Shown: positions 24,543 through 40,793, counted from the first letter of the stretch. The stretch: DNA of 64,000 bases from Bacteroidales bacterium (GCA_003550725.1 PUKZ01000097.1:5884-69883); one strand, 5' to 3'. Translations and numbers: made by a program. Notes: generated from the letters alone by a model not told the origin.

Positions 24543-25469
24543 ATGAAGATTACAGATATTTTTAAAAAACAAAAACGAACATTTTCATTTGAATTTTTTC
24601 CGCCAAGTGATTATTTGACTGCTGTCAAGTTTGGCATTAATGCGGGTCAGTTAATGAAGCTTTCGCCCTCTTTTGTTTCAATAACTTATGGTGCAGGTGG
24701 GTGTACTCAAACCAACACTTTCGACCTTGTTGATTTATTTCATAATGATTTGGGTTTTACTTGTATGGCTCATTATACGTGCGTTAATGCTACCAAAGAA
24801 AAAATTGCCTACGATATGAGAGTATTGCAGGATATGGGAGTGGAAAATGTTATGTTGCTTAGAGGCGATAAACCCAAAAATGAACCCCTTAAGTTTCCTA
24901 ATCCTGATGGATTTAATTATGCCAGCGACCTGGTAAAATTTGTAAATGAGAATTATAACTTCTGTATAGGAGGAGGAGCATATCCCGAAAAACATACAGA
25001 AGCACCATCTTATGAAAAAGATATTGAAAATTTAAAAGTTAAAGTTGATGCAGGAGTTGAATTTTTAATAACACAAATGTTTTTTTGTAACAATTATTAT
25101 TGGAATTTTGTTAATAAAGTTGAGCAAAAAGGGATTAAATGCAGGATTATACCCGGTATTATTCCGATTACAAATTTTAAGCAAATCAAAAAATTTGCTG
25201 ATTTAACCGGAGCCCAATTTCCTGAAAAATTGTTGAAAAAAATTGAACCTTACCAGGATAGACCTAAAGAAGTTTACAAGATCGGACTCGATTGGGCAGT
25301 TAAACAAGTAAGTGACTTGCTGGAAAATGATGCCCCGGGTATACATTTTTATACACTAAATAAATCAATGGCAGCAATTAAATTATATGAATCGCTGTCT
25401 GAAGATTTTAAAGACGTTAAAACACTTTATGAAAAAAGCTTTAAACCCCATATTCCTAGGCCTCTTTAA
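24543..25469 (+). CDS. metF: Methylenetetrahydrofolate reductase (E. coli-type MetF)
   Basis: SFEFFPP, SITYGAGG, AHYTC, LRGD, AYPEKH, ITQMFF, HFYTLN. Confidence 0.95.
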   Translation: MKITDIFKKQKRTFSFEFFPPSDYLTAVKFGINAGQLMKLSPSFVSITYGAGGCTQTNTFDLVDLFHNDLGFTCMAHYTCVNATKEKIAYDMRVLQDMGVENVMLLRGDKPKNEPLKFPNPDGFNYASDLVKFVNENYNFCIGGGAYPEKHTEAPSYEKDIENLKVKVDAGVEFLITQMFFCNNYYWNFVNKVEQKGIKCRIIPGIIPITNFKQIKKFADLTGAQFPEKLLKKIEPYQDRPKEVYKIGLDWAVKQVSDLLENDAPGIHFYTLNKSMAAIKLYESLSEDFKDVKTLYEKSFKPHIPRPL

Positions 25470-25535
25470 TGGGTTATATACTTATTTTTTTGTTTTATTT
25501 TTAAAATAAAAACTTGTGTTTATAAAAGTCTTATA

Positions 25536-25543: not shown

Positions 25544-26080
25544 TAAAATCAAAGAAAAATTGATTTGTCATTAAACGGCATATTTTTCATAAATAATACA
25601 AAGCTGATATGTAAAAAAATATAATTTATATTTTAAAAAGCAGCATTTGATATTTAATATGAATGGCAGCCGGGGTGTTCAATTAGGGCTTTGTTTTAAA
25701 TCTTGTAGTTTTTTTCTCAAATCTGCAAAGTGTCCACTCCCATGCATCCCACTTGTTCCTCTGAAATCATGAGGGGCAAAGCAATGTGATAAAAAGCATT
25801 AATAAAGCATAAAGCTCAAAATGCTTTGAAACATTGCTCCAAAAAAGGTATACAGCCTTCTAAACATGTCAAAAGCAATACCTGTAATTGTTAAAATTAC
25901 GTGTGGCTTATTGTTATTACAGCAGGAAATGTTTGCTGCTTATTTGTTATGTGTTTTATTAATGAAAAATTACATTGCTTTATTAAATAAAATATAGTTA
26001 GCTGTTAATGTTTATCAATAATGGTAAGATTATTTGGTAATTTATAAAAATATTTTTTTAACAAAATAAAATTTACATTT

Positions 26081-26719
26081 ATGGATTTAAGCAAAATTTC
26101 AGAAACTTTAATATCAGGAAAGTCTGATGAATTAAAGAAATTAGTTGAAGAAGCTGTTAACAGTGATGCCAATCCGAGTGATATACTTAATAAGGGGTTA
26201 TTACCCGGGATGGATGCTGTAGGCCAGAAATGGAAAGCCGGCGACATGTTTATGCCGGAAGTACTACGTAGTGCAAAAGCTATGAGTAATGCTATGGATT
26301 ATCTCAGGCCAAAGTTAAAGGATGATGATTTAGGCAATGCCGGAACAATGGTTATAGGAACTGTAGCAGGTGATTTGCATGATATTGGCAAAGACCTTGC
26401 AGCTATGATGTTTGAGGGAGCAGGTTATAAGGTGATTAATATTGGCATTGACCAGTCTAATGAAAACTTTGTTAATGCGGTAAAAGAACATAAACCCAAT
26501 TTACTTGGGATGTCAGCATTGCTTACTACAACAATGCCCCGTATGGGTGAAGTAATTAACTCTTTGAAAGAGGCAGGTATTCGAGACCAGGTTGCTGTAA
26601 TTATTGGCGGAGCACCTGTTACCGAAGAATTTGCAACAGAAATCGGAGCAGATCTTTATGCTCCGAATGCAGGAACAGCTGTTGAAATTACTAAAGAATA
26701 TCTACAGAAAAAATCATAG
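26081..26719 (+). CDS. Stand-alone corrinoid methyl-carrier protein (MtgC/MttC-like)
   Basis: Cap domain (FMPEVL), DLHDIGK (DxHxxG), SALLTTT, GGAP. Confidence 0.93.
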   Translation: MDLSKISETLISGKSDELKKLVEEAVNSDANPSDILNKGLLPGMDAVGQKWKAGDMFMPEVLRSAKAMSNAMDYLRPKLKDDDLGNAGTMVIGTVAGDLHDIGKDLAAMMFEGAGYKVINIGIDQSNENFVNAVKEHKPNLLGMSALLTTTMPRMGEVINSLKEAGIRDQVAVIIGGAPVTEEFATEIGADLYAPNAGTAVEITKEYLQKKS

Positions 26720-26743
26720 TTAAGAAGTGTAATTTTTAACAGC

Positions 26744-26978
26744 TTAATTACCCTCTAATCATATCATTGATCAAAAAGATGATGCAGAAGTTAAAATTAC
26801 TTTTTTCTGCAAATCTGAATAACAATTGATCAAAGAGGTGAGGTGATTAAAAAAATAAAATAAACACTATAATTAAATATTGCTATGAAAACCTCATCTG
26901 CCAAAGCTTTTAAAAGACAATTGGCTTTGTAAATAGAGGTCTCACGGCCAAAGTGGGTAATAAGCATGAGGGTTTCAT
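26744..26978 (+). other. Two long imperfect RNA stem-loop domains between the corrinoid and first MttB genes
   Basis: Nested pairs ttaattacc/ggtgattaa, ctct/agag, ttgatcaa/ttgatcaa, tgcagaa/ttctgca (26744-26850); atgaaaacctcat/atgagggtttcat (26885-26897 / 26966-26978). Confidence 0.5.
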
Positions 26979-27048
26979 TGGTCAATATCTAAAAACTTCT
27001 AAGTTAACAAATATAATTTATTATAAGTAAGAACTTTAAATACATTTT

Positions 27049-28503
27049 ATGCAAATGAAAATGAATCAGACTGTTAATAATTCTCCACGATTTCGGGTAC
27101 TTTCGGAAGATCAAATCGAGCAGATATATTATTCTGCTTTAGAAGTACTTGAAAGAACAGGGGGGTGTTTTTACCATGATGAAGCCATCGAACTTTTTAA
27201 AAACAGCCATGCAGTTGTAAGGGGCAATAATGTTCGTGTGCCTGCTTATATGGTTGAAGAAGCTTTGAATTTTTATCCCAGGAAGATAACCCTTAAAGGA
27301 AGAAACGATACACGTTCTCTTCATATACAAAAAGATACTGTTGCATTTGGTACAGGTTCAGATTTACCGTTCACGTATGACCGGCAAACAGGAGAAAGGC
27401 GCAGAACTGTTTATAAGGATATAAATAATGCTGCAAAGCTTGTAGATGCTTTATCTAATTATGATTTTTTTATGTCACATGGAATTGTAAGTGATGCTCC
27501 TAATCCCCAGACGTATGACAGGCATCAATTTATGGCTATGCTTGAACAGTGTACAAAGCCGATGGTTTTGACAAGTGTTGATGGAGAAGGGCTTGAGGAT
27601 CTTTGGAAAATGGGTTGTTTGATTCAGGGAGGTGAAGAAGAATTTAAACTTAACCCTTTATTTGTAGCATATATAGAGCCTATTTCACCGCTTAAAAATG
27701 ACCGAACTGCTGTAGAAAAACTTTTGTTTGCTGCCGAGAAAAAATTACCTGCAATGTATACTCCATGTCCCAGCTCAGGAGCTACTGCTCCGGCAACAAT
27801 TGCCGGTATGTTGGTTCAATCACTGGCCGAAACACTATTGGCGACAGTATTATGCCACCTTAAAAATCCCGGCACACCTTTGATTATGGGAGGAGTAACT
27901 ACATTGCTTGATATGAAAAAATCAACCTACTCTTACGGTGCACCCGAACTCTCACTCGCATCAGCTGCTAATACCGATATATCCAAATGGATTAATCTTC
28001 CGATGTTTTCTACCGGGGGATGTACTGATTCTAAAATTATTGATGAGCAGGCAGCAGCTGAACAAATGATGAATTTGTTTTATGCCTACCTCTCAGGTGC
28101 AAATTTGGTGCACGATGTTGGTTATATTGACCATGGAACCAATGCTTCACTTGAAAGTTTGGTGTTAAACGAAGAAATGATGGGAATGGTTAAACAATTC
28201 GGCAAAGGTATTAACACTGACGATGATCATATGGCTCTTGACTTGATTGAAAAAGTCGGGCCGGGTGGAGAATACGTAACCTCCGACCATACCTTTGATC
28301 ATTGGAGAGAATGGTTTTTACCACAACTGCAAGATAGAAGTGATTACGAGACCTGGAAAAATAGTGGCTCTAAAACAATGCTTGACCGAGTAAAAGAAAG
28401 AACTGACTATTTACTTGAAAACCACAAACCTGAGCCTATGGATGAAAAACTTGAAAAAGAATTGAAGGAAATTATCAGCAGCGCTGATAAAAGACATTCG
28501 TAA
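27049..28503 (+). CDS. MttB-superfamily (trimethylamine methyltransferase family) corrinoid methyltransferase, non-pyrrolysine, paralog 1
   Basis: LSEDQIEQI..SALEVLE..G, PISPL, GATAPATIAG, DMK....YGAPE, GGCTDSK..DEQAA.E, GANL.HD.G, VGPGGEY; no in-frame TAG. Confidence 0.92.
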   Translation: MQMKMNQTVNNSPRFRVLSEDQIEQIYYSALEVLERTGGCFYHDEAIELFKNSHAVVRGNNVRVPAYMVEEALNFYPRKITLKGRNDTRSLHIQKDTVAFGTGSDLPFTYDRQTGERRRTVYKDINNAAKLVDALSNYDFFMSHGIVSDAPNPQTYDRHQFMAMLEQCTKPMVLTSVDGEGLEDLWKMGCLIQGGEEEFKLNPLFVAYIEPISPLKNDRTAVEKLLFAAEKKLPAMYTPCPSSGATAPATIAGMLVQSLAETLLATVLCHLKNPGTPLIMGGVTTLLDMKKSTYSYGAPELSLASAANTDISKWINLPMFSTGGCTDSKIIDEQAAAEQMMNLFYAYLSGANLVHDVGYIDHGTNASLESLVLNEEMMGMVKQFGKGINTDDDHMALDLIEKVGPGGEYVTSDHTFDHWREWFLPQLQDRSDYETWKNSGSKTMLDRVKERTDYLLENHKPEPMDEKLEKELKEIISSADKRHS

Positions 28504-28571
28504 ACTGGCTGTAAGGGTTTTTTATAAATTGTTATTTAATAAAAAAAATTTTTGAATCTAATAACTCAAAC

Positions 28572-30050
28572 ATGATTAGCAGAACAAATTACACAATACA
28601 ACAAAGTCCTCATTTTGAATTATTATCTGAAAACCAGAAGGAAAAGATATTCAACGGTATGATGCGTACCCTGCAATATACCGGAGCACATGTTCATCAT
28701 GAAGGTGCAAGGGAGCTTTTTAAAAAAGCAGGATGCAAGGTTGACGGTATAACAGTTTATTTTCCGCCGGAAGTTATATTGAATGCATTATCTACTGTAC
28801 CTCCGGTCACCGAAATATTTCCATGGGATGGCGATGAATCGAAAAAAATTATTATTGAAAAGAAAAGAAGTTATTTTGGTCCGGGGCCTACCCCTCCAAA
28901 TTTCATTGATACTGATACACTTGAGCGAAGGAAGTATTTGCGAAAGGATGCATCTTTGGTAGCAAGGGTTTGTGATGCTTTACCCAATATTGGTTATGTG
29001 CAGTCGCTGGGTTCTATTAGTGATGTTACCAATGGGTTGGCAGATATTTATGAGTTTGCTGATATGATTCGCAACACTACGACCCCGATCATGAGCTGGT
29101 CTTTTACACGTGATGGTTGTCATGATATTCACCGTGTAGGTATAGCTATGGCCGGTGGAGAAGAAGAATTTAAGCAAAGGCCAAATTACGTCTTTTATGG
29201 CGAGCCTATATCACCACTGGTTAGCGATTTTCATGCAATTGACAAATGTATGTACTGTGCCGAACATAGAATTCCGCAAGTATACAGCCCGTGTGCTATT
29301 GGAGGAGGAACAGTGCCGGCATCTCATGCAGGGCAGATTGTTGTTGCCCTTTCTGAATCAATGGTTGGGGTTATCGCTGCTCAGCTTATTAACCCCGGAA
29401 CATGTGTAATTATCGGTGGCGTACAGTCAATACTCGACATGAAATGTTCTATATATTCATACGGTGCTCCGGAACTTAGCTTGTTAAGTGCTGCTTTAAC
29501 TGAAATGGTGCATTATTGCAATTTGCCCATGTATTCGACTGCCGGTTGTACCGACACAAAAAAAATGGATATCCAATCTGCTTTGGAAGCAAGTCTCTCA
29601 ATAAATGCTGCAATGATGAGTGGTGCTAACTTTGTGCATGACTGTGGCTACACTGAATCGGGTTTAACCGGTGATATCTTCCAGACAGTTATGGATGATG
29701 AAATTATTGGAATGGCTCGTATAATAGAGAAAGGTGTTGAAGTTAATGAGGAAACCCTTGCTGTCGATCAAATTGCTAATGTTGGCCCCGGTGGGCATTA
29801 TCTTTATGAAGATCACACAATGAAGCATTTTAGAAATCACTGGATGCCCACATTAATGGATAGAAACAGCTATGAAGACTGGAATCAGCAAGGAAGTAAG
29901 ACCATGAAAGAAAGAATATTGGAAAAAACAAGAGATTTGATTGAAAACTATGAAGGGCCCCGGGAAAAAGTTCCACAGAAGGCTGATAAGGAAATAGAAA
30001 AAATTCTCGAAGAGGCTGAAAAAAGAGAAGCAAGTAAAAATGATAAATAA
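28572..30050 (+). CDS. MttB-superfamily corrinoid methyltransferase, non-pyrrolysine, paralog 2
   Basis: PISPL, GGTVPAS.AG, DMK....YGAPE, AGCTDTK..DIQSA.E, GANF.HD.G, VGPGGHYL...HT; no in-frame TAG. Confidence 0.92.
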   Translation: MISRTNYTIQQSPHFELLSENQKEKIFNGMMRTLQYTGAHVHHEGARELFKKAGCKVDGITVYFPPEVILNALSTVPPVTEIFPWDGDESKKIIIEKKRSYFGPGPTPPNFIDTDTLERRKYLRKDASLVARVCDALPNIGYVQSLGSISDVTNGLADIYEFADMIRNTTTPIMSWSFTRDGCHDIHRVGIAMAGGEEEFKQRPNYVFYGEPISPLVSDFHAIDKCMYCAEHRIPQVYSPCAIGGGTVPASHAGQIVVALSESMVGVIAAQLINPGTCVIIGGVQSILDMKCSIYSYGAPELSLLSAALTEMVHYCNLPMYSTAGCTDTKKMDIQSALEASLSINAAMMSGANFVHDCGYTESGLTGDIFQTVMDDEIIGMARIIEKGVEVNEETLAVDQIANVGPGGHYLYEDHTMKHFRNHWMPTLMDRNSYEDWNQQGSKTMKERILEKTRDLIENYEGPREKVPQKADKEIEKILEEAEKREASKNDK

Positions 30051-30140
30051 AACTAAAAGTTAAGAAAGTTAAAAGATAATAAGTTTTAAGTAAATTAATT
30101 AATCTTTCAATCTTTTTAAGGAGTTATTGAAAACCTAGTT

Positions 30141-32147
30141 ATGAACCGATACATCATAGGCATAAATACTGGTGGCACCTATACTGATGGGGTATTACTG
30201 GATTATGTTTCCAGGAAGGTTGTTTCTGCTGCTAAATCGGTTACAACGAGGCAGGATCTGAAAATTGGTGTTATAAAGGTTCTTAAAAAGCTGAATATTA
30301 AAAATAATTTCAATATAAAACTTGTGGGAATTTCCAGTACATTGGCAACAAATACTGTAGCCGAGGGCAAGGCCCGGAAAGTAGGGCTTTTGCTTATTGG
30401 TTATGATAAAGAATTGATTGAAAAATATGATTTATCAAGTAAAATCCCTGCCGAAATCACAGGATATTTTAAGGGAGGTCATAATGCTCAGGGTGCAAAG
30501 CTTGCAGCCCTGGATAAGAAGGGTGTAAAAAAGTGGGTAATTGAAAATCAGGACAATATAGATGCTATTGCTGTATCGGGTTATTTTAGCCCATTAAATC
30601 CTGAGCATGAAGAGGCTGCTTTTAAAATTATTAAAGAAAACTCTTCTTTACCTGTAGTGATGGCGCATCAGTTGTCAACAAAGCTTGATTCGATTAAAAG
30701 GGCTTCAACAGCCTCCATTAATGCATCTTTGGTAGCAGTAATGCAGGATTTCATTCAAGCCGTGAGCTTCTCATTGTCAGAGTTGAATGTTAAAGCGCCC
30801 CTGATGATTGTGCGTGGTGATGGAACATTAATGCCCTCTTCAGAGGCTGAAAGTAAACCTGTTGAAACAGTATTATCAGGCCCTGCTGCAAGTGCTATTG
30901 GCGGAAGATTTCTTTCCGGTAACGGAAATGTTCTTGTTGTAGATATAGGAAGTACTACTACCGATATGGCATTGGTAAATAATTCAAGGGTAGTGGTCAC
31001 AGAAGATGGTGCCAGGGTGGGAAAGTGTGAAACTGCTGTTGAAGCTGCAAAAATTAGAACTATTAGCCTGGGATGTGACAGCAGGATTCATTATAACGAA
31101 AAAAATGAACTGAAGCTTGGACCTGACAGGGTAAGGCCATTATCACATATTGCATTACATCACGACAATGTGTTGAACGATTTTCATAAGATGCAAAAAT
31201 CAACCACCCTGGGGCGAGATCCTAACGATATTGAGTATTGGTATATGCATGACCCCCTCGATGAAAATACTTATGAGTCTTTAACCGATAAGCAGAAAAA
31301 AGTTATTGATCTTATTCAAAAACCTAAAAGGCTTTCCGGGCTGTTAAAGAGAGTAGGGGTGTATCATGTCGGGCATCTAAATTTAGATGATCTGATAAGC
31401 CAGGGAAAAATTGAATGTGCTGCTCTTACCCCGACAGATTTATTACATGTCGAACGAAGCTTAAACCTTTGGGACAGGGAAGTAGCAAAAATTGCCCTCG
31501 ATTATTATTGCAGAATATATGGCAAAACACCAAGAAATTTTATTGATGAGGTATTTAGTAAAATTATTAATATTTTGGTAGAAGAGATAATTATTTTTCT
31601 TGCATGTCAAAATATTGATCCCAAGGAAATGCCTGTTTCGGTTGATGGTGAATGGGGTAAGTGGATGTTGCAGCAAATATTGCATAGCGATAATCACTTT
31701 TTATCAATTGATGCAGATAGCCGTTACCCTGTTGTTGGAGCCGGATCACCGGCTAAACATTTTCTTAAAAGAGCAGCAAGGATTGTGAATGCAAAATTTA
31801 TTTTACCCGAATTTTTTGACGTGGCTAACGCCGTGGGAGCTGTATCAGGCTCAATTTCAGAAATCAGAGAGGCTATCGTATTTGTCCGCGACAGTAAAGG
31901 GCAATATTCATATATAGCCAAGCATGAAGGCCGAATCAAAGCTTTTAAAGAGTATGAGGATTGTTGTGAATATGCTGAACAAACAGCTAGAAAACTTGCA
32001 AGAGAGGCTGCAATTAAATCGGGAGCTACTGATTGTTTTGTTGAAGTTGAAAGAAGGGTGGAAGGATCACTTTTAAGATTTATTGCTCGAGCTATTGGTA
32101 ATCCAAAATTATCAGAAAGAGATAAAAATGATAAAGTTAAGATTTAA
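30141..32147 (+). CDS. Hydantoinase A/oxoprolinase-family ASKHA ATPase-like protein
   Basis: GINTGGTYTD, STLATN..AEG, NPEHE, LSGPAAS, VDIGSTTTD, LTPTD, VANAVGA. Confidence 0.85.
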   Translation: MNRYIIGINTGGTYTDGVLLDYVSRKVVSAAKSVTTRQDLKIGVIKVLKKLNIKNNFNIKLVGISSTLATNTVAEGKARKVGLLLIGYDKELIEKYDLSSKIPAEITGYFKGGHNAQGAKLAALDKKGVKKWVIENQDNIDAIAVSGYFSPLNPEHEEAAFKIIKENSSLPVVMAHQLSTKLDSIKRASTASINASLVAVMQDFIQAVSFSLSELNVKAPLMIVRGDGTLMPSSEAESKPVETVLSGPAASAIGGRFLSGNGNVLVVDIGSTTTDMALVNNSRVVVTEDGARVGKCETAVEAAKIRTISLGCDSRIHYNEKNELKLGPDRVRPLSHIALHHDNVLNDFHKMQKSTTLGRDPNDIEYWYMHDPLDENTYESLTDKQKKVIDLIQKPKRLSGLLKRVGVYHVGHLNLDDLISQGKIECAALTPTDLLHVERSLNLWDREVAKIALDYYCRIYGKTPRNFIDEVFSKIINILVEEIIIFLACQNIDPKEMPVSVDGEWGKWMLQQILHSDNHFLSIDADSRYPVVGAGSPAKHFLKRAARIVNAKFILPEFFDVANAVGAVSGSISEIREAIVFVRDSKGQYSYIAKHEGRIKAFKEYEDCCEYAEQTARKLAREAAIKSGATDCFVEVERRVEGSLLRFIARAIGNPKLSERDKNDKVKI

Positions 32148-32222
32148 AAAATAAAACCGAATTAATATTTTTTTACAGACTCTTTTGTAAAAGAGCCTAA
32201 TATATATTTGCGTTAATAAATA

Positions 32223-32885
32223 ATGAATACAATAATTGCTTGTGAAAGTATAAAGCCTGAACTTGAACATGTTAAAGGTAATACAAAGGATGTGAAAATA
32301 AAATATCTTTCACAAAATTATCATCGTAACCCCGGAAAGCTAAAAAAAGCTCTCCAGGCTGCTATTGATAAAATAAAACCCGGTGATGGCAAACTGATCC
32401 TTGGGTTCGGTTTATGTTCTAATGCTGTTGTTGATATAAAGGCTCCTACACAGGGATTATATGTTCCATGTGTTCATGATTGTATTACCTTATACCTGGG
32501 AAGTCGTGATAAATACAAGCAATTATTTATGAAGTATCCGGGTACTTATTATTTAACAAAGAGCTGGATAGGTAATAAAAAAGATCCACTCGGAACCATG
32601 AGAAATGAATACACAAAAAGGGTTGGCAGGAAGATGGCTGAAGAAACTATGCAGCGGGAGATCAAAAATTATAAATATATAAGCTTTATCAATACTGCGG
32701 GAAAAGATGAAAAGAAATGTTTGCAAAGAGCTAAAGAAAATGCTCTCTATTTCAATAAAGAATTTATAGAATATAAAGCTAATGATGATTATTTTAGGAA
32801 AATAGTGTTTGGACCTCATAAAGAGCCGGATTTTATTTATATTAAACCCAACGAAAAAATTACACAAAAAGAATTTTTTAAATAG
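32223..32885 (+). CDS. DUF1638 domain protein
   Basis: IIACE, H..P..L...LQ, LGFGLCS, HDCI...LGS, GTYYLT..W pattern; typical neighbour of corrinoid methyltransferase genes. Confidence 0.8.
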   Translation: MNTIIACESIKPELEHVKGNTKDVKIKYLSQNYHRNPGKLKKALQAAIDKIKPGDGKLILGFGLCSNAVVDIKAPTQGLYVPCVHDCITLYLGSRDKYKQLFMKYPGTYYLTKSWIGNKKDPLGTMRNEYTKRVGRKMAEETMQREIKNYKYISFINTAGKDEKKCLQRAKENALYFNKEFIEYKANDDYFRKIVFGPHKEPDFIYIKPNEKITQKEFFK

Positions 32886-32897
32886 GAGGAATAAATT

Positions 32898-33698
32898 ATG
32901 CAAATTGTTGGTGAATTGATTAACGCCAGTAGAAAAAAAGTTAGGGAAGACATTAAGGAAAAGAACAAAGAAAAGATTGCTGACCTTGCAAAAGAGCAAC
33001 ACGAAGCCGGAGCCGATTTTATAGATGTTAATGCCGGAACCTTTGTTGGCAAAGAAGAAGAATATGTAAAATGGTTGGTGCAAACAGTGCAGGAAAAAGT
33101 TGATACACCCTGCTGTATTGACTCACCCGATCCTAAAGTTGTTGAAGAAGCGGTGAAAGTACACAAAGGTGTACCTATGGTAAACTCCATATCACTCGAA
33201 TCAGATCGTTATAACAACCTGATACCTGTTATCAGAGGCACTGACATGAAAATTATCGCTCTTTGCATGAGCGATGAAGGTATGCCATATACTAAAGATG
33301 ATAGAATGAAAATTGCCGATAAGCTTGTTAATGGATTGTTAAGCAATAATATAGATATTAAAAATATATATGTCGATCCATTAGTACAACCTATAGGTTC
33401 GGGAGATAACCTTGGTATGGAATTTTTGAATTCAATTGAAGCCATACATAAAGAATTTGAAGGTATAAATACTATATGTGGTCTTTCCAATATATCTTTC
33501 GGAATACCGAAAAGAAAATTTGCCAATCAAACTTTCATGATAATGGCAATTACTAAAGGTTTAAATTCTGCAATATTAAACCCACTCGATAAAAAGATGA
33601 TGGCTAATATTGTTGCAGCAGAAATGCTTGCCGGAAAAGACCAGTTTTGCGGTAAATATATGGATGCATATAGAAATGGGTTGTTTGAAGTAGAATAA
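32898..33698 (+). CDS. Methyltetrahydrofolate:corrinoid methyltransferase (MtgA/AcsE-like pterin-binding barrel)
   Basis: IVGELIN, IDVNAG, IDS, VNSIS, YVDP, GLSNISFG. Confidence 0.92.
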   Translation: MQIVGELINASRKKVREDIKEKNKEKIADLAKEQHEAGADFIDVNAGTFVGKEEEYVKWLVQTVQEKVDTPCCIDSPDPKVVEEAVKVHKGVPMVNSISLESDRYNNLIPVIRGTDMKIIALCMSDEGMPYTKDDRMKIADKLVNGLLSNNIDIKNIYVDPLVQPIGSGDNLGMEFLNSIEAIHKEFEGINTICGLSNISFGIPKRKFANQTFMIMAITKGLNSAILNPLDKKMMANIVAAEMLAGKDQFCGKYMDAYRNGLFEVE

Positions 33699-33829
33699 AA
33701 CAGAGAAAATTATTTTGCGAAATAAAGTTAAATAAATTAGTCAACCAATATTTTTTAAGCCTATTAATGTATTGGCTTATAGTGATAAGTTGAGTTTTTT
33801 ATTAATGTAAATATTTAAGAGGAGGTTTT

Positions 33830-34663
33830 ATGAGCAAAAAATATTCAAATGATATAGAAGTTGCAAGGAATTATTATAACAGTTCTGATGCCCACACTTT
33901 TTATTATATGATATGGGGAGGGGAAGACCTTCATCTGGGCATTTATAATTCGGAAGATGAAGACATATACCGGGCTAGCCGCAGAGCTGTTGATCGTATA
34001 GCTTCTTATTTTGAAAAAATTGATCAAAACACAAAAATTATCGATTTTGGTGGTGGATTTGCTGGTTCAGCCAGGCATCTTGCAAAAAAATATGGTTGTC
34101 ATGTTACTGTAATTAACCTAAGCGAAACCGAAAACAAACGTGGCCGGAAAATGAATGAAGAACAAGGCCTTAGCCATTTAATTGATATTATTGATGGTAG
34201 TTATGATGATGTGCCTTTTGAAGATGAAACTTTTGATATTGTATTCTCCGAAGATGCTATACTACACAGTAATAATAAAGAAAAAGTTATTAGTGAAGCC
34301 TATCGGCTACTTAAACCTAATGGAGATTTTGTTTTTTCCGACCCAATGCAAACCGATAATTGCGACGAAAAGGTTTTAAAACCCATTTATGAAAGAATAA
34401 ACCTTTCATCATTGGGATCACCTGCATTTTATAAGGAAAAATGCAAACAGGCCGGGTTTAAAGAAATCAATTTTGAAGAGTTGGATAAACATTTGGCAAT
34501 TCATTATTCACGAATTCTTGCGGAAACAGAGAAAAAGCAGAAAGAACTTGAAAAATATGTTTCAAAAGAATATATAGAGAATATGAAAAAAGGATTGAGA
34601 CACTGGATAAAAGGAGGTGAAGAAAATAATTTGACCTGGGGGATTTTTCATTTTAAAAAATAG
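33830..34663 (+). CDS. Sarcosine/dimethylglycine N-methyltransferase (SDMT, SAM-dependent; glycine betaine synthesis)
   Basis: ARNYYNS.DA..FY..IWGGEDLHLGIY N-terminus, SAM motif IDFGGGFAG, SEDAILHS, FSDPMQ, MKKGL.HW..GG....LTWGIF C-terminus characteristic of halophile SDMTs. Confidence 0.88.
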   Translation: MSKKYSNDIEVARNYYNSSDAHTFYYMIWGGEDLHLGIYNSEDEDIYRASRRAVDRIASYFEKIDQNTKIIDFGGGFAGSARHLAKKYGCHVTVINLSETENKRGRKMNEEQGLSHLIDIIDGSYDDVPFEDETFDIVFSEDAILHSNNKEKVISEAYRLLKPNGDFVFSDPMQTDNCDEKVLKPIYERINLSSLGSPAFYKEKCKQAGFKEINFEELDKHLAIHYSRILAETEKKQKELEKYVSKEYIENMKKGLRHWIKGGEENNLTWGIFHFKK

Positions 34664-34842
34664 CAGTTAATTTTTTATATGGATGTTTTTCAAAATGGTT
34701 TATTTGGAAGTTTTGAAAATTTGTTTTTAATTGTCTGTTTTTGATATTAAGTTTTTTTTATCAGTATATAATATATCGAGATTAACTTTAAAAATTATAA
34801 ATAACTATTTATTAAAATAATAACATAAAATTATATAATATC

Positions 34843-36267
34843 ATGAATAATTTAGAAAAGATTGATGAGAATATTAATTATCGGGTAAAAGATATTAATC
34901 TTGCCGAGTTAGGCCGAAATGACATACGTTTGGCCGAACATGAGATGCCCGGATTGGTTGAATTAAGAAAGAGGTATGGTAAGGAGCAGCCGTTAAAGGG
35001 AGCTCGAATAATGGGGTCATTGCATATGACTACCCAAACTGCTGTGCTTATTGAAACATTGACGGCTCTTGGTGCTGATGTTCGTTGGGCAAGTTGTAAT
35101 ATTTTTTCAACACAAGATGAAGCAGCAGCAGCAATTGCCAAAACCGGTGTTCCTGTTTTTGCATGGAAGGGGGAAACTCTTGATGAATACTGGTGGTGTA
35201 CTGCACAGGCTTTAACTTTTCCCGGTGGTAAAGGACCCGATTTGATTGTTGATGATGGTGGAGATGCTACTTTGATGGTCCTACTTGGTCATCAGGCTGA
35301 AAAAGATCCTTCAATTCTTGAAAAAAACGCCGAAGCATGGGATGAAATAGCATTGCTAAAAAGACTAAAGTCTCTGCAACAACAGGATAAAGATAAGTGG
35401 CACAGGATGGTAGAAGACATTCAGGGTGTATCGGAAGAAACAACTACCGGTGTGCACAGGCTTTATCAAAGAGAAAAGGAAGGAACTCTTCCATTTCCCG
35501 CTATTAATGTTAATGACTCTGTTACGAAATCAAAGTTTGATAATAACTATGGAAACAGGGAGTCGTTGATTGACGGTATAAAAAGAGCTACTGATGTGAT
35601 GATAGCAGGAAAAACAGCTGTAGTATGTGGTTATGGCGGTGTTGGCAAAGGATGTGCACAAGGTTTAGCCGGTTTTGGAGCTAAAGTTATCATTACAGAA
35701 GTAGATCCTATATGTGCTCTGCAAGCCGCTATGGAAGGATATGAAGTGAGAACCGTAGAAGAAATTCTCGATAGAGGCGATATTTACGTTACAGCTACAG
35801 GTAATAAAGATGTTATTACTGTGGATCATATGAGTAAAATGAAAGATAAAGCCATAGTGTGCAATATCGTGCATTTTGATAATGAGATACAACTTGAAAA
35901 ACTTGAAGAAAGAAAAGACGTCAAAAAAATAAATATTAAACCACAGGTTGACGAATATGTATTTCCGGATGGACATTCAATAATAATGCTTGCAGAAGGA
36001 AGATTAGTGAACCTGGGTTGTGCTACAGGACATTCTTCATTTGTGATGAGTAATTCATTTGCAAACCAGGTGCTTGCACAAATAGATCTTTGGAAAACCG
36101 ACCGTAAACCCGGTGTTTACATGTTGCCAAAAAAACTTGATGAAGAAGTTGCCCTGGCTCACTTGAAACATCTTAATATTAGTCTTTCCAAAATGACTAA
36201 AGAACAAGCCGATTACCTGGGTGTGCCTGTAGATGGACCGTATAAAACTGAACATTACAGGTATTAA
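34843..36267 (+). CDS. ahcY: Adenosylhomocysteinase
   Basis: [64 protein letters not shown]-terminus. Confidence 0.97.
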
Positions 36268-36463
36268 AAATAATATTTTTTAATGCATGTTTGCTTATAA
36301 TATTTAAGTATTTGTTTTTAGATTTCAAATATTTGAAAGCTAAAATTGTTTTAGACCTTTTAAATATTGTCAAACCTTTCTTAAAACATTTATATTATTG
36401 GCAGACATTATAAAATAATAAACATAAGAAAATCATAAATTATAAATTATAAAATAATAAATT

Positions 36464-37735
36464 ATGCCTTATTTATTTACTTCAGAATCAGTATCGGAAG
36501 GACATCCCGATAAAATTGCTGATCAAATATCAGATGCTGTATTGGATGAATTGTTAAAGGATGATCCTGACGCTAAATGTGCAGCCGAAACTTTTGTAAC
36601 TACCGGACTTTGCCTGGTAGGAGGAGAAATTAGAACCACTACTTATGTGGAAGTGCAGGATCTTGCACGTGAAGTTATAAGAAGAATTGGTTATACCAAG
36701 CCTGATTATCGTTTTGATGCCGATTCCTGCGGTGTTCTTACAGCTATCCACGAACAATCTCCTGATATATTCAAAGGTGTGGATAGAGAAATACAGGAGG
36801 AGCAAGGAGCCGGCGACCAGGGAATGATGTTCGGCTTCGCTACAAACCAAACAGAAAACTATATGCCCTTGCCCCTGGATATCTCTCACCGCATATTAAA
36901 AGAACTGGCTTCAATACGAAAAGTTGGAGGTGATATGCCATATCTCAGACCCGACTCTAAAGCACAGGTTACTTTTAAATATGATGATGACGACACGCCA
37001 ATAGGTATTGATACAATAGTTGTTTCAACACAACATGATGATTTCATTAAGCCCACTGGAGTGGGAGAAAAAGCCCAGGATAAGGCCGACAGGGATATGC
37101 TTGGTAAAATTGAAACTGATGTTGAAAACATACTCATCCCCAGGGTAAAAGCAACTTATCCGGCTGAAATTCAAAAGTTTTTTGATGTAAAGTATAAGTT
37201 GTTTGTTAACCCTACAGGTAAATTCGTTGTTGGAGGTCCTCATGGTGATACCGGATTAACCGGAAGAAAAATTATCGTCGATACTTATGGTGGATTTGGC
37301 CGTCATGGTGGTGGTGCTTTTTCCGGAAAAGATGCATCAAAAGTTGACCGCTCAGCAGCCTATGCAGCAAGACATATTGCTAAAAATATGGTTGCAGCCG
37401 GCATAGCCGATGAAGTTGAAATACAGCTAGCCTACGCCATTGGAGTTGCTGACCCTGTAGGCTTATTCGTTTCTACTAAAAGACCAAAAGTAAAACTAAC
37501 AAACGAAGAAATAGCCGAAAAGATAAATAAATTGTTTGATCTTCGTCCAAGTGCTATTATAAAAAGATTTGGCTTAAAAAATCCAATTTTTCAGGAAACA
37601 GCTGCTTACGGACATATGGGCAGGAAACCGGGTAAAAAAGTTGTATATGTTAATGGTAATAAAAAAGAAGTAGAAACATTTACCTGGGAAAAGCTGGATT
37701 ATGTTGATAAAATAAAGCAAGAGTTTAATTTGTAA
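36464..37735 (+). CDS. metK: S-adenosylmethionine synthetase (Bacteroidota type)
   Basis: [55 protein letters not shown]. Confidence 0.98.
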
Positions 37736-37740
37736 ATTAA

Positions 37741-37787
37741 TAACGGGTGAATTACTAACGGGTAACGAGTTTACACGTTACCCGTTA
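37741..37787 (+). repeat. Perfect 12-bp stem-loop with a duplicated arm between metK and adenosine kinase
   Basis: taacgggtaacg (37756-37767) / cgttacccgtta (37776-37787); extra taacgggt copy at 37741. Confidence 0.7.
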
Positions 37788-37808
37788 TCCCAAAATAATT
37801 ATTAATAT

Positions 37809-38777
37809 ATGGATAAAGTATTAGGTATAGGTAATGCACTTATTGATACTATGGTGCGTCTTGATAATGATGATTTTCTCAAAGAGGTAAATCTGCCAAA
37901 GGGAAGTATGCAATTGGTTGATAGCGACGAGAGTAAAAAAATTGCAAAAAAGTGTGAAGGTTTTAAAAAATCAAAATCAAGCGGAGGTTCTGCCGCTAAT
38001 ACGATTCATGGGCTTGCCAGGCTTGGTGTTAGTGTAGGGTATATTGGTAAAGTTGGAAAAGATGAACTGGGTGATTTTTTCATTAATGATCTTAAAAAAA
38101 GCCGGATAAGGCCTAATATATTATATGGAAATAGTAATAGCGGCCATGCTTTGGCTCTTATATCACCTGACTCCGAAAGGACTTTTGCTACTCATTTAGG
38201 TGCAGCCCTTGAACTAAGCGCTGATGATCTTAAAAATGAATTTTTTGAAGATTACGATTTTTTGCATATAGAAGGGTATCTTCTTCAAAATCATAGCCTT
38301 ATGCAAAAAGCCCTTGAAATGGCCAAAAATAATGGCCTGAAAATATCACTTGACCTTGCCAGCTTTAACGTTGTTGAAGATAATCTTGATGTATTAACTG
38401 AATGGGTTGAAAATTATGTTGATATATTATTTGCTAATGAAGAAGAAGCAAAGGCTTTTACAGGTAAAGAACCTGAAGAAGCACTTCATGAATTAGCTGA
38501 AAAATCTGAAATAGCTGTTGTAAAAATAGGTAAGCATGGTTCATTGATAAAAAAAGGTGAAGATGTATTTAAAATAGAACCTATAAAAGTGAATGCTACA
38601 GACACAACCGGTGCAGGCGATGCATATGCAGCCGGCTTCCTGTTTGGGCTGGTAAAAGGCTATAACCTTGAAAAATGTGGTGAAATTGCTTCCATATTGG
38701 CAGGAAAGGTTATTGAAGGTACGGGAGCCAAGATGAATGAAGAAAAGTGGAAAGAGGTTTATGAGATTATTGGTTGA
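37809..38777 (+). CDS. Adenosine kinase (PfkB family)
   Basis: GIGNALID, PKGSMQL, GGSAANT, ERTF.T.LGA, FANEEEA, DTTGAGD; follows ahcY-metK. Confidence 0.82.
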   Translation: MDKVLGIGNALIDTMVRLDNDDFLKEVNLPKGSMQLVDSDESKKIAKKCEGFKKSKSSGGSAANTIHGLARLGVSVGYIGKVGKDELGDFFINDLKKSRIRPNILYGNSNSGHALALISPDSERTFATHLGAALELSADDLKNEFFEDYDFLHIEGYLLQNHSLMQKALEMAKNNGLKISLDLASFNVVEDNLDVLTEWVENYVDILFANEEEAKAFTGKEPEEALHELAEKSEIAVVKIGKHGSLIKKGEDVFKIEPIKVNATDTTGAGDAYAAGFLFGLVKGYNLEKCGEIASILAGKVIEGTGAKMNEEKWKEVYEIIG

Positions 38778-38868: not shown

Positions 38869-39681
38869 ATGAACTTTCGTATATACTTAGCTTTTTTCTT
38901 ATTATTTATTACAACTTCCGGTTATACCACCAAAAATATCAATGTTGTATCCCTGTCTCCATCACTTACCAAAATGATATATTTGCTTGAAAGCCAGGAT
39001 AATCTTGTGGGTTGTACTGAGTTTTGCGATATACCCGAAGAGGATGAAAAAAATATCGTGGCTTCACAAATGAATGTTAACGTAGAAAAAATCCTTTCCA
39101 TTTCACCCGATTTAGTTATTACAACTAAATTAACCTCTGCCCGGTATATTGAGACCTTAAAGAAAACCGGTGTAAATACCAGAGTTTTAGGTACTCCCGA
39201 ATCTTTTGTAGAACTGTGTGACCAATTTATTAAAATAGGCAAGCTTATCGGGAAAGAAGATTTAGCCGTTTCTATAATAGAACAGCAAAAATCCAGACTG
39301 GCAAGGCTGCAACAAAAAATTCCGGATAACGATAATCCTGAGATATTTATGCAGCTTGGTGTTAAGCCTTTGTTTACTGTTATTCCGGGTACTTTTATGA
39401 ATGATTATATAAATCTTTCTGGTGGAGTTAATATTGCCTCCGACTTGACAAAGGGTACAATAACCCGTGAAACGGTTTTAACCAGAGACCCTGATGTTAT
39501 AATTATAGTCTTGATGGGCATGGTTGGTGAAGAAGAAAAACAAAACTGGAAAAGTTATTCCGGCCTTAGAGCTGCTGAAAAAGATAAAATATTCATGATC
39601 GATGAGGATAAAGCCTGTAGCCCAACACCTGTGACTTTCGTTGATACTGTGGAGGAGATAATTGACCTTATGTATAATTAG
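38869..39681 (+). CDS. ABC transporter substrate-binding protein, BtuF/cobalamin-siderophore class
   Basis: Signal peptide, VVSLSPS.T, LVGCTEFCD, NVEKIL...PDLV, PDVII. Confidence 0.8.
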   Translation: MNFRIYLAFFLLFITTSGYTTKNINVVSLSPSLTKMIYLLESQDNLVGCTEFCDIPEEDEKNIVASQMNVNVEKILSISPDLVITTKLTSARYIETLKKTGVNTRVLGTPESFVELCDQFIKIGKLIGKEDLAVSIIEQQKSRLARLQQKIPDNDNPEIFMQLGVKPLFTVIPGTFMNDYINLSGGVNIASDLTKGTITRETVLTRDPDVIIIVLMGMVGEEEKQNWKSYSGLRAAEKDKIFMIDEDKACSPTPVTFVDTVEEIIDLMYN

Positions 39682-39776
39682 TGAAAAGTTATGAGATTAT
39701 TCTATAATTTCGTAAATAATTTTATACCACAGAATTTCAAAGAGATTTTATAAAACAATAAAACCGGCCAAAAGGG

Positions 39777-40790: not shown

Positions 40791-40793
40791 ACT

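What the first reader, a model, noticed from the sequence alone, without database searches (positions are those of the whole stretch)
26081..38777. Candidate hybrid cobalamin/SAM pathway for glycine betaine biosynthesis (MttB enzymes replacing GSMT)
Seen: one co-directional block holds a corrinoid protein, two divergent MttB-family methyltransferases, a methyl-THF:corrinoid methyltransferase, an SDMT, then ahcY, metK and adenosine kinase. It is flanked by metH-metF and a BtuFCD-like importer. No glycine/sarcosine methyltransferase (GSMT) and no betaine importer (BCCT/Opu) is present in the window. Known: halophiles make betaine with GSMT+SDMT, often clustered with SAM-cycle genes, whereas characterised MttB/corrinoid/MtgA trios demethylate amines. 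A betaine demethylase co-transcribed with SDMT would be a futile cycle. Inference: the corrinoid system runs in the methylating direction (methyl-THF -> corrinoid -> glycine -> sarcosine -> dimethylglycine, one MttB per step). SAM would then be used only for the uphill quaternisation by SDMT, saving two of three ATP-costly SAM cycles per osmolyte in an anaerobe.
Basis: partly seen in the sequence, partly recalled or inferred. Interest (0 to 1): 0.92.

Follow-up and report, generated by a model that had tools for sequence, protein, structure and literature searches.

The report
Possible B12-dependent route to glycine betaine
Salt-loving anaerobic bacteria from several phyla share a gene cluster that joins two unusual vitamin-B12-linked methyltransferases to the last enzyme of glycine betaine synthesis, which suggests an untested, cheaper way to make this salt-protecting compound.

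Summary
The gene block is real.

MttB1 orthologues lie in 69 MAG loci from Bacteroidota, Balneolales, Verrucomicrobiota, Desulfobacterota, Hydrogenedentota, Spirochaetaceae and Syntrophomonadaceae. The same block of corrinoid protein, MttB1, MttB2, ATPase, DUF1638 and MtgA recurs wherever the contig reaches. SDMT is beside it in 46 loci, in three different gene orders. Serine-synthesis, SAM-cycle, metF and B12-uptake genes are often beside it too.

Neither MttB keeps the betaine-binding residues of MtgB (1 of 4 kept). Both carry a conserved Cys at the pyrrolysine position and a His-Asp pair.

No GSMT was found in the window's genome. Among 57 genomes with the cluster, 20 have a GSMT. All 11 SDMT genomes without the MttB pair have one.

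The best reading (about 50%) is that methyl-THF, through the corrinoid protein and the MttBs, methylates glycine and/or sarcosine to feed SDMT. Direction and substrates are untested. GSMT co-occurs in about a third of carriers. A distant relative lies in a catabolic-looking cluster in a genome without SDMT. Four literature searches found no description of such a route.

The parts
20769..24434 (+). metH, full-length cobalamin-dependent methionine synthase (1221 aa)
   Evidence: NF007024, 1741.9 bits against a cut-off of 1497. metH and metF lie directly upstream of the corrinoid gene in 7 related loci, and metH alone in L016.
24543..25469 (+). metF, methylene-THF reductase, which makes methyl-THF
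   Evidence: TIGR00676, 304.6 bits against a cut-off of 293.7. It is also linked to the cluster, at a different position, in the Verrucomicrobiota loci L046 and L047.
26081..26719 (+). Corrinoid (B12-binding) carrier protein, MtgC/MttC-like
   Evidence: PF02310 and PF02607. Best NCBIfam match is MtgC_2, 232.9 bits, below its 370 cut-off. The D-x-H-x-x-G stretch is present. It is the only free-standing corrinoid protein found in the genome.
27049..28503 (+). MttB1, a non-pyrrolysine MttB-superfamily methyltransferase. Signature residues: S104, D105, F320, C325, H355, D356
   Evidence: PF06253, 334.7 bits. Best PDB match is MtgB (9yce/2qne), E about 5e-78. The signature is kept in 62 of 63 orthologues. 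The Cys codon TGT is at 28021-28023.
28572..30050 (+). MttB2, a paralogue 40% identical to MttB1. Signature residues: P, T, Y/F, C, H, D
   Evidence: PF06253, 284.2 bits. PDB alignments. Cys is kept in 53 of 55 orthologues and His-Asp in 55 of 55.
30141..32147 (+). Hydantoinase-A-like ASKHA ATPase (668 aa), a conserved accessory. Its presumed role is ATP-dependent upkeep of the corrinoid protein (inferred).
   Evidence: PF01968 and PF05378. Best PDB matches are 5-oxoprolinase and N-methylhydantoinase over the N-terminal 330 aa. Present in 53 loci. No Fe-S motif.
32223..32885 (+). DUF1638 protein, linked in the literature to B12 reactivation
   Evidence: PF07796, 129.3 bits. Present in 40 loci. 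Literature passages read.
32898..33698 (+). MtgA/AcsE-like methyl-THF:corrinoid methyltransferase
   Evidence: NF005719, 337.4 bits against a cut-off of 259; PF00809. It is the only such gene in the genome apart from the MetH domains.
33830..34663 (+). SDMT, SAM-dependent sarcosine/dimethylglycine N-methyltransferase. It is the only one in the genome.
   Evidence: NF041675, 381 bits. The SDMT halves of real fused GSMT-SDMT proteins score 406-441, also under the 550 cut-off. PDB 2o57, E 2.6e-61. Single copy in the genome.
34843..36267 (+). ahcY, S-adenosylhomocysteine hydrolase
   Evidence: TIGR00936, 617 bits against a cut-off of 498.
36464..37735 (+). metK, SAM synthetase
   Evidence: TIGR01034, 498 bits against a cut-off of 309.
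37809..38777 (+). pfkB-family kinase, probably an adenosine kinase
   Evidence: PF00294. Best PDB match is adenosine kinase 3ubo, E 1.9e-46. No NCBIfam model scores above its cut-off. Linked to the cluster in 16 loci.
38869..41600 (+). btuF-, btuC- and btuD-like ABC importer, presumed to take up corrinoid
   Evidence: BtuF, BtuC and corrinoid-ATPase models are among the best matches, all below their cut-offs. Relatives carry B12-type transporters behind cobalamin riboswitches beside the cluster.

Best explanation
The block is the glycine betaine biosynthesis locus of an anaerobic, salt-adapted Bacteroidales-type bacterium. A three-component corrinoid methyltransferase system is built into it.

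Proposed mechanism:
1. MetF makes methyl-THF.
2. The MtgA-like enzyme moves the methyl group onto Co(I) of the corrinoid protein.
3. MttB1 and MttB2 pass it from methyl-Co(III) to the amino group of glycine and/or sarcosine. This makes sarcosine and/or dimethylglycine without SAM.
4. The single SAM-dependent SDMT completes the pathway to betaine.
5. AhcY, adenosine kinase, MetH and MetK recycle S-adenosylhomocysteine back to SAM.
6. The hydantoinase-like ATPase and DUF1638 keep the corrinoid protein active, and BtuFCD brings in B12.

Shown here: gene identities; conservation of the cluster; its ties to serine, SAM, folate and B12 genes; the non-MtgB active sites; and the inverse relation with GSMT.

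Inferred: the substrates (glycine, sarcosine), the direction of methyl flow, and the split of steps between MttB1, MttB2 and SDMT. Where GSMT co-occurs, the two routes would be alternatives, much like MetH and MetE.
For: 1. Conserved linkage. MttB1 orthologues (56-89% identical) lie in 69 loci. By record title these are 37 Bacteroidota, 20 Desulfobacterota, 5 Hydrogenedentota, 2 Verrucomicrobiota/Victivallales, 2 Syntrophomonadaceae, and 1 each of Balneolales, Spirochaetaceae and unclassified. SDMT lies in 46 of the 69. Of the 23 loci without it, 22 end before the place where SDMT lies in their relatives. The other, L072, holds a distant SDMT-like gene.

2. The gene order differs between phyla: SDMT follows mtgA in Bacteroidota, precedes the corrinoid gene in Desulfobacterota, and is divergent in Hydrogenedentota.

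3. The neighbours are biosynthetic, not catabolic. In Desulfobacterota, serA and a DUF1015 protein sit inside the block. DUF1015 (SerBK) is an alternative phosphoserine phosphatase (preprint passages). metF, metK, ahcY and pfkB recur. No betaine-type importer is in the cluster. The only transporters are B12-type ones behind cobalamin riboswitches.

4. Inverse relation with GSMT. The window's genome has none. Of the 8 genomes searched that have metH directly upstream of the cluster (with metF in all but G009/L016), 7 have none. Among 57 carriers, 20 have a GSMT over the cut-off. In two random samples of 400 genomes each, all 11 SDMT-positive genomes without an MttB1 orthologue have a GSMT, adjacent to SDMT in 10. 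The one SDMT-positive genome without GSMT (G691) has MttB1 and MttB2 next to its SDMT. Fisher p = 5.5e-5.

5. The cluster's SDMT is usually the only one: 5 of 5 genomes and 41 of 50 have exactly one.

6. Active sites. Of the betaine-binding residues of MtgB (Y97, R312, H348, F356; PMC13080624, abstract and passages), only the His is kept. Both aromatic residues that hold the quaternary nitrogen are lost.

7. The window's genome shows no acetyl-CoA synthase, so there is no acetogenic sink for methyl-THF.

8. Desulfonatronospira thiodismutans ASO3-1 carries a protein in the same 90%-identity cluster as P0165, which is 69% identical to MttB1. That genus is reported to synthesise glycine betaine as its main compatible solute (PMC3084936, passage).

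9. Established knowledge, recalled and not checked here: free-energy tables put methyl transfer from a methanol- or methyl-THF-level donor to a primary or secondary amine at roughly -20 kJ/mol. Only the quaternising step is not favoured. Corrinoid MT-I enzymes can run in both directions (passage in PMC13618148).
Against: - GSMT co-occurs in 20 of 57 carriers (22 counting partial genes). It lies beside the cluster in three Hydrogenedentota loci (L058, L078, L079), directly upstream in L037, and about 8 kb upstream in L020. The MttB pair is therefore not simply a replacement for GSMT.
- No MttB-superfamily enzyme is known to work physiologically in the methylating direction. The characterised ones demethylate (papers read).
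- 'Candidatus Formimonas warabiya' DCMF demethylates betaine to dimethylglycine and then sarcosine (PMC9768040, passages). So demethylation of these amines happens in vivo.
- A more distant pair (51% and 65% identical, same Cys/His signature) lies with two more MttB paralogues, an ABC importer and a C-N hydrolase in genome G957. No SDMT match was found there.
- Most carriers are MAGs of unknown completeness, and the window's genome is 89% complete. Related genomes are not independent, so the Fisher p overstates the case.
- Whether this SDMT can methylate glycine itself is untested.
- No expression data were obtained.
Confidence: 0.5

Rival explanations
1. Methyl harvest. MttB1 and MttB2 take methyl groups from unidentified methylated amines, from outside or inside the cell, onto the corrinoid protein. 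MtgA passes them to THF. The resulting methyl-THF feeds MetH, MetK and SAM, which drives SAM-dependent betaine synthesis.
For: All characterised MttB relatives are demethylases that load a corrinoid protein (papers read). In Ruegeria, a corrinoid system links betaine demethylation to methionine synthesis (PMC12478193, abstract and passages). The reading fits carriers that also have GSMT, including loci where GSMT is adjacent. A distant relative (G957) sits beside an importer.
Against: It leaves the 37 of 57 GSMT-less carriers with no route from glycine to sarcosine, and it does not explain the inverse relation with GSMT. The halophile clusters hold no substrate importer. They do hold metF, serA and SerBK, which already supply C1 units and glycine. 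From recalled free-energy tables, demethylating a primary, secondary or tertiary amine to methyl-THF is uphill.
Confidence: 0.15
2. Osmolyte turnover valve. The MttB pair demethylates dimethylglycine and sarcosine (or betaine), returning methyl groups to THF when betaine must be lowered or reused. It sits with SDMT because the two are regulated together as opposing arms of betaine homeostasis.
For: Stepwise corrinoid-linked demethylation of betaine to dimethylglycine to sarcosine is reported for strain DCMF, where several MT-I paralogues in one cluster were proposed to be substrate-specific. That cluster also lists an 'unknown' 668-aa protein beside MtgA, the same length as the ATPase here (homology not tested). 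Two paralogues would fit two successive demethylations.
Against: Co-expression with SDMT would be a futile cycle. The residues that hold betaine's quaternary nitrogen in MtgB are absent. The window's genome shows no acetyl-CoA synthase. It also gave no glycine/sarcosine reductase match, but that search's control rang nowhere, so it is inconclusive. This reading does not explain why GSMT is dispensable only in carriers. The neighbours are biosynthetic.
Confidence: 0.12
3. No direct coupling. SDMT makes betaine alone, either because it is promiscuous enough to start from glycine or because it starts from imported sarcosine or dimethylglycine. The corrinoid system does something else, and sits nearby only because of a shared one-carbon, B12 and SAM neighbourhood that moves as a block by gene transfer.
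For: In a quick tree, the cluster SDMTs of Bacteroidota, Balneolales and Desulfobacterales form one clade (SH-aLRT 98), which fits transfer of the block as a unit. The genome has a BCCT transporter and an OpuAC protein. Some BCCT carriers take up dimethylglycine (titles and abstracts listed; those papers were not read).
Against: The gene order was reshuffled in at least three ways while the linkage was kept. That argues for selection on the linkage, not hitch-hiking. Characterised SDMTs are reported not to use glycine (recalled, not checked). The inverse relation with GSMT stays unexplained.
Confidence: 0.08

Closest known systems
MtgB/MtgC/MtgA glycine betaine:THF methyltransferase system (Desulfitobacterium hafniense, Acetobacterium woodii)
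   Same: The same three components: an MttB-superfamily MT-I, a corrinoid protein, and a pterin-binding MT-II. MtgB is the best PDB match of both MttBs.
   Different: Only 1 of the 4 betaine-binding residues is kept. The position aligned with pyrrolysine holds Cys here and Leu in MtgB. There are two paralogues in tandem. The setting is biosynthetic, with SDMT, the SAM cycle and serA, and there is no betaine importer. The proposed direction is the opposite one.
Canonical SAM-dependent GSMT + SDMT betaine pathway (halophilic bacteria, Methanohalophilus; fused forms in actinomycetes)
   Same: SDMT and clustering with SAM-cycle genes. The window's SDMT is 59% identical to the SDMT half of a fused GSMT-SDMT protein.
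   Different: No GSMT was found in the window's genome, and none in 37 of 57 carriers. A corrinoid system sits where GSMT would be expected.
MtgBCD(E) of Ruegeria pomeroyi, which links betaine demethylation and methionine synthesis
   Same: A corrinoid protein shared with one-carbon and methionine metabolism, DUF1638 as an accessory, and methyl transfer that runs both ways at the THF step.
   Different: That system is aerobic and catabolic, and it uses a true betaine-specific MtgB. Here a complete MetH is also present, and the MttBs lack the betaine site.
Pyrrolysine-dependent trimethylamine methyltransferase MttB with MttC (Methanosarcina barkeri)
   Same: The fold and the Gly-Thr turn (G110-T111) are kept in MttB1. 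The position of R312 (MtgB numbering) holds an aromatic residue, as it does in MttB.
   Different: There is no in-frame UAG. Cys (TGT) stands at the pyrrolysine position and His at the Tyr364 position. Scores are below the TIGR02369 cut-off.
MetH/MetE-type pairs of B12-dependent and B12-independent enzymes (an analogy, not homology)
   Same: It would explain why some carriers keep GSMT alongside the corrinoid route, and why B12 importers are linked.
   Different: This is only an analogy. No regulation by B12 was shown for the MttB genes, and no riboswitch was found in front of them.

Membership tests
MttB superfamily (PF06253) | Full-length match to the MTTB profile | tested here: met
   334.7 and 284.2 bits against a cut-off of 25, covering about 470 of 500 profile positions.
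Pyrrolysine-dependent trimethylamine methyltransferase (TIGR02369) | Score above the equivalog cut-off, and an in-frame UAG (pyrrolysine) at the active site | tested here: not met
   406.8 and 360.1 bits against a cut-off of 525. The ORFs are uninterrupted. Cys stands at the aligned position, encoded by TGT at 28021-28023.
MtgB glycine betaine:corrinoid methyltransferase | The betaine-binding residues Y97, R312, H348 and F356 (PMC13080624) | tested here: not met
   MttB1 has S, F, H, G and MttB2 has P, Y/F, H, G at these positions. This holds across 63 and 55 orthologues.
Cognate corrinoid protein (TIGR02370 / MtgC models) | B12-binding cap and Rossmann domains with the His-on motif | tested here: met
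   PF02607 and PF02310 are over their cut-offs and the motif is present. The specific MtgC, MtbC and TIGR02370 models all score below their cut-offs, so the subfamily is not assigned.
Methyl-THF:corrinoid methyltransferase (MtgA/AcsE type, NF005719) | Score above the cut-off, pterin-binding fold | tested here: met
   337.4 bits against a cut-off of 259; PF00809, 80 bits. The direction of transfer cannot be read from sequence.
SDMT (NF041675) | Score above the equivalog cut-off of 550 | tested here: inconclusive
   381 bits is under the cut-off. But the SDMT halves of fused GSMT-SDMT proteins score only 406-441, and canonical GSMT-adjacent SDMTs score 353-473. The best PDB match is an SDMT. Substrate range was not tested.
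Canonical GSMT + SDMT pathway | A GSMT (NF051855 at 350 bits or more) in the genome | tested here: not met
   The best match in the window's genome scores 45.5 bits. The genome is 89% complete.
SAM cycle (AhcY, MetK, MetH, MetF) | Equivalog scores above the cut-offs | tested here: met
   617 against 498, 498 against 309, 1742 against 1497, and 305 against 294 bits.
Adenosine kinase | Specific similarity to characterised adenosine kinases | tested here: inconclusive
   The best PDB match is adenosine kinase 3ubo, E 1.9e-46. No NCBIfam model scores over its cut-off.
RACo/RamA reductive activase | The RACo C-terminal ASKHA domain (PF14574) with an Fe-S domain | tested here: not met
   No match in the window's genome. 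RACo is present in the Desulfobacterota and Verrucomicrobiota versions of the cluster. The hydantoinase-like protein has no Fe-S motif.

The most novel reading that the evidence does not exclude
MttB-superfamily enzymes work here as biosynthetic, cobalamin-dependent glycine and sarcosine N-methyltransferases driven by methyl-THF. This gives halophilic anaerobes from at least six phyla a SAM-sparing route to glycine betaine. It would be the first anabolic role for this family, and the first betaine pathway that needs B12. SAM would be spent only on the final quaternising step.
Probability: 0.5. Interest if true: 0.92.

Novelty: new variant of a known kind. Interest (0 to 1): 0.8.

Why it matters
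Making molar amounts of betaine through SAM costs several ATP equivalents per methyl group. This cost is a standard argument for why low-energy anaerobes struggle at high salt.

A route that takes one or two of the three methyl groups directly from methyl-THF through B12 would:
- change that energy budget;
- tie salt tolerance to B12 supply in hypersaline sediments;
- give the large, mostly uncharacterised non-pyrrolysine MttB family its first biosynthetic function;
- offer a SAM-independent N-methylation module for biocatalysis.

Even if the direction proves wrong, the conserved Cys/His-Asp MttB clade and its tight tie to betaine synthesis are new and testable. Desulfonatronospira thiodismutans ASO3-1 is a cultured organism that carries an orthologue.

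Tried and rejected
- Riboswitches. Rfam found nothing in the window at gathering thresholds. At E up to 1 over 20000-39000 it gave only a sub-threshold PYLIS_3 match inside mttB1. I read that match as coding-sequence homology to mttB, not as a pyrrolysine signal.
- Promoter and terminator scan. Promoter-like sites were no more frequent than in shuffled sequence. It showed no convincing terminator on the + strand between genes inside the block. The scan does not model Bacteroidota promoters, so the operon structure stays open.
- Expression. No RNA holder was listed for 26081-34663.
- Desulfonatronospira genome context. A 400-genome sample of that phylum with min_completeness 97 did not contain it. 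A GSMT protein search listed no Desulfonatronospira entry among the best 120 of 3231 hits, which says nothing either way.
- Glycine/sarcosine reductase in the window's genome. No hit, but the control rang nowhere, so the result is inconclusive.
- SDMT tree. The careful search did not finish in 300 s, so only the quick tree is reported. The Verrucomicrobiota SDMT rows were lost to my ORF calling.
- Genomes not searched. Only 55 of the 69 loci's genomes were searched for GSMT, because of the limit of 50 loci per call. I dropped 14 mostly short or duplicate loci: L032, L038, L040, L042, L057, L062, L069, L071, L073, L074, L075, L077, L078, L080.
- Not done. Structure prediction, fold search and complex prediction were not run. 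Homology to solved MtgB and MttB structures was already clear, and a paralogue dimer would pass by likeness alone.
- Rejected idea: the hydantoinase-like gene as part of a creatinine-to-sarcosine route. Only the A-type ATPase part is present.
- Supplementary files of the papers were not seen. The alignments in PMC13080624 (Figs S2, S3) and the protein tables of PMC9768040 could bear on the residue and accessory-protein claims.

Full report
**What is in the window**

Positions 20769-41600 carry fifteen co-directional genes on the + strand:
- metH (1221 aa) and metF.
- A 212-aa corrinoid protein with cap and B12-binding domains. The translation shows the His-on stretch.
- Two MTTB-family genes, MttB1 (27049-28503) and MttB2 (28572-30050). 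They are 40% identical to each other.
- A 668-aa hydantoinase-A-like ATPase and a DUF1638 protein.
- An MtgA/AcsE-type methyl-THF:corrinoid methyltransferase (NF005719, above its cut-off).
- An SDMT-like methyltransferase.
- ahcY and metK, both above their cut-offs.
- A pfkB kinase whose best solved relative is an adenosine kinase.
- A btuFCD-like importer.

The window lies on contig C13 of a 3.02-Mb, 195-contig, 89%-complete genome.

That genome holds one further MttB homologue of a different active-site type (C17), one short MetH, no second free corrinoid protein and no second MtgA. It has a BCCT transporter and an OpuAC protein elsewhere. It shows no RACo activase and no acetyl-CoA synthase.

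**Is the SDMT real?**

It scores 381 bits on NF041675, under the 550 cut-off. That cut-off is very strict:
- The SDMT halves of fused GSMT-SDMT proteins found with it score 406-441. Their N-terminal halves hit the GSMT model NF051855 at 466-485 bits against a cut-off of 350.
- Canonical SDMTs beside a GSMT score 353-473.

I therefore treat it as an SDMT whose substrate range is untested.

**What kind of MttB are these?**

The best solved relative of both is MtgB, the glycine betaine methyltransferase of D. hafniense. The 2026 JBC paper on MtgB (PMC13080624; abstract and passages read) defines the betaine site. Y97 and F356 hold the quaternary nitrogen. R312 and H348 hold the carboxylate.

From the printed alignments, chain numbering in 9yce is the paper's numbering minus 2.

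| MtgB residue | MttB1 | MttB2 |
|---|---|---|
| Y97 | S | P |
| R312 | F | Y/F |
| H348 | H | H |
| F356 | G | G |

At the position aligned with pyrrolysine-334 of M. barkeri MttB, both proteins have Cys, where MtgB has Leu. At the position of MttB Tyr364 (MtgB His348), both have His followed by Asp.

Across the orthologues collected here:
- MttB1 group: the Cys and the His-Asp pair are each kept in 62 of 63.
- MttB2 group: Cys is kept in 53 of 55 and His-Asp in 55 of 55.

So these are neither pyrrolysine MttBs nor MtgBs. They form a distinct Cys/His-Asp clade. The loss of both aromatic residues argues against a quaternary amine substrate. What the triad does (general acid/base or a metal site) is speculation.

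**Conservation of the cluster**

A scan of one genome per species (genome contigs) found 69 loci that encode MttB1 orthologues at 56-89% identity. All are MAGs. By record title they are 37 Bacteroidota, 20 Desulfobacterota, 5 Hydrogenedentota, 2 Verrucomicrobiota/Victivallales, 2 Syntrophomonadaceae, and 1 each of Balneolales, Spirochaetaceae and unclassified.

Several isolate labels (CSSed, T3Sed, B1Sed, T1Sed) are dataset names for moderately hypersaline to salt-saturated Siberian soda-lake sediments (PMC6146748, passages).

The block of corrinoid protein, MttB1, MttB2, ATPase, DUF1638 and MtgA recurs wherever the contig is long enough. SDMT lies in 46 of the 69 loci. Of the 23 loci without it, 22 stop before the place where SDMT lies in their relatives. 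The other, L072, holds a more distant SDMT-like gene (189 bits).

The gene order differs by lineage:
- **Bacteroidota:** SDMT, ahcY, metK and pfkB follow mtgA.
- **Desulfobacterota:** DUF1015, SDMT and serA precede the corrinoid gene. A GcvR-like ACT protein and RACo are inserted. pfkB or serA closes the block.
- **Verrucomicrobiota:** two corrinoid genes lead, and SDMT, metF and RACo follow.
- **Hydrogenedentota:** a GSMT-SDMT pair is divergent from the corrinoid gene.
- **Syntrophomonadaceae:** the SDMT-like gene, pfkB, ahcY and serA lie beside MttB2, the corrinoid gene and MttB1, followed by a cobalamin riboswitch and an ECF transporter.

Other points on the neighbours:
- DUF1015 is SerBK, an alternative to phosphoserine phosphatase (bioRxiv 10.1101/2024.10.14.618325, passages).
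- DUF1638 is tied to B12 reactivation.
- Cobalamin riboswitches precede B12-type transporters beside the cluster in L020, L044 and L072.

The recurring company is therefore serine and glycine supply, methyl-THF supply, SAM recycling and B12 supply. No betaine-type importer is in the cluster. This is a biosynthetic neighbourhood.

**The GSMT test**

The window's genome has no GSMT (best 45.5 bits; tblastn). For the other carriers:
- 1 of 5 genomes has one, unlinked to the cluster.
- 19 of 50 are over the cut-off, and 2 more hold partial genes.
- G691: none.
- Total: 20 of 57 carriers, or 22 counting partial genes.

GSMT lies inside five of the 69 loci: three Hydrogenedentota loci and two Bacteroidales loci. 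Eight searched genomes have metH directly upstream of the cluster, as the window does (with metF in all but G009/L016). Seven of them have no match, and G023 has a partial gene at a contig edge.

SDMT was found in 52 of 56 carriers, almost always as a single copy.

Controls came from two random samples:
- **400 Bacteroidota genomes.** 7 have SDMT. All 7 have GSMT, adjacent to SDMT in 6. None has any MTTB gene.
- **400 genomes of the Desulfobacterota carrier's phylum.** 5 have SDMT. Four have an adjacent GSMT and no MttB1 orthologue. The fifth, G691, has no GSMT but has MttB1 (74% identical) and MttB2 right beside its SDMT.

So GSMT is present in 11 of 11 SDMT genomes without the pair, against 20 of 57 with it. 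Fisher p = 5.5e-5. That figure is overstated, because related genomes are not independent and the completeness of the MAGs is unknown. GSMT looks dispensable only where the MttB pair is present.

**Interpretation**

An SDMT without a GSMT needs a source of sarcosine or dimethylglycine. The only conserved candidates beside it are the two MttBs, together with a corrinoid protein and a methyl-THF:corrinoid methyltransferase.

The simplest pathway is methyl-THF to Co to glycine and/or sarcosine, with SDMT finishing.

The quaternising step is not, which fits keeping SAM for the last step.

Corrinoid MT-I enzymes are known to be reversible in vitro (passage in PMC13618148).

In carriers that keep GSMT, the two routes could be alternatives, B12-dependent and B12-independent.

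A cultured candidate exists. Desulfonatronospira thiodismutans ASO3-1 has a protein in the 90%-identity cluster of P0165, which is 69% identical to MttB1. That genus is reported to synthesise betaine as its main solute (PMC3084936, passage). I could not inspect its genome.

**What speaks against this reading**

- GSMT co-occurs in a third of carriers and is sometimes adjacent to the cluster.
- No MttB member is known to methylate in vivo.
- Strain DCMF demethylates betaine down to sarcosine (PMC9768040, passages).
- Genome G957, drawn with min_completeness 97, has a more distant MttB1/2-like pair (51% and 65% identical, Cys/His signature). It lies with two further MttB paralogues, the ATPase, MtgA, a corrinoid protein, a C-N hydrolase and an ABC importer. 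No SDMT match was found in that genome. The wider clade is therefore probably catabolic in origin.
- Methyl harvest and osmolyte turnover remain live rivals. Neither explains the GSMT pattern.

**Novelty**

Four full-text searches found no description of a corrinoid- or methyl-THF-dependent route to betaine, or of this cluster. Databases name these proteins only 'trimethylamine methyltransferase family protein'. A 2018 study of a haloalkaliphilic Syntrophomonadaceae could not find a complete betaine pathway (PMC6295475, passage).

**Verdict**

The mechanism is plausible at about even odds and needs biochemical testing.

Noticed in passing
G000:C17:103018-104406 (- strand; L098:6980-8431) and L098:6035-6712: There is a third MttB-family gene in the same genome, with a different active-site pattern (Ala at the pyrrolysine position, Lys-Val in place of His-Asp). 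A CpaM-like class I methyltransferase lies beside it, and no corrinoid protein is nearby.
   Followed up: partly
L014:1792-2826 and L037:2074-3090: A free-standing MetH activation (SAM-binding reactivation) domain (PF02965, 375 and 387 bits) is encoded directly upstream of the corrinoid gene in a Balneolales locus and a Bacteroidales locus. This hints at MetH-style reductive remethylation of the carrier protein.
   Followed up: partly
window 28021-28120; L020 and L044 10967-11066: The Rfam PYLIS_3 model (pyrrolysine insertion sequence of mttB) matches inside mttB1, starting exactly at the Cys325 codon (35.9 bits in the window; 42.4 and 39 bits in the relatives). This is probably coding-sequence homology and not a recoding signal.
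   Followed up: partly
L137 (G957:C358:20000-35869): This cluster holds four MttB paralogues, two of them MttB1/2-like with the Cys/His signature. With them are the hydantoinase-like ATPase, MtgA, a corrinoid protein, a carbon-nitrogen hydrolase and a family-5 solute-binding ABC importer. No SDMT match was found in this genome. It is likely a catabolic relative with an unknown substrate.
   Followed up: partly
G000:C17:71426-73987: There is a second, shorter MetH-like gene (about 866 aa matched, 44% identical to the window's MetH). It appears to lack the activation domain.
   Followed up: no
L052:15136-15621; L065:15424-15993: The Desulfobacterota versions of the cluster carry a YbaK/EbsC-like deacylase homologue and a two-ACT-domain protein that weakly resembles the glycine cleavage repressor GcvR. 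Both lie between the ATPase and RACo.
   Followed up: no
window 51860-56305: A 1481-aa ORF and other genes outside the finding were listed but not examined.
   Followed up: no
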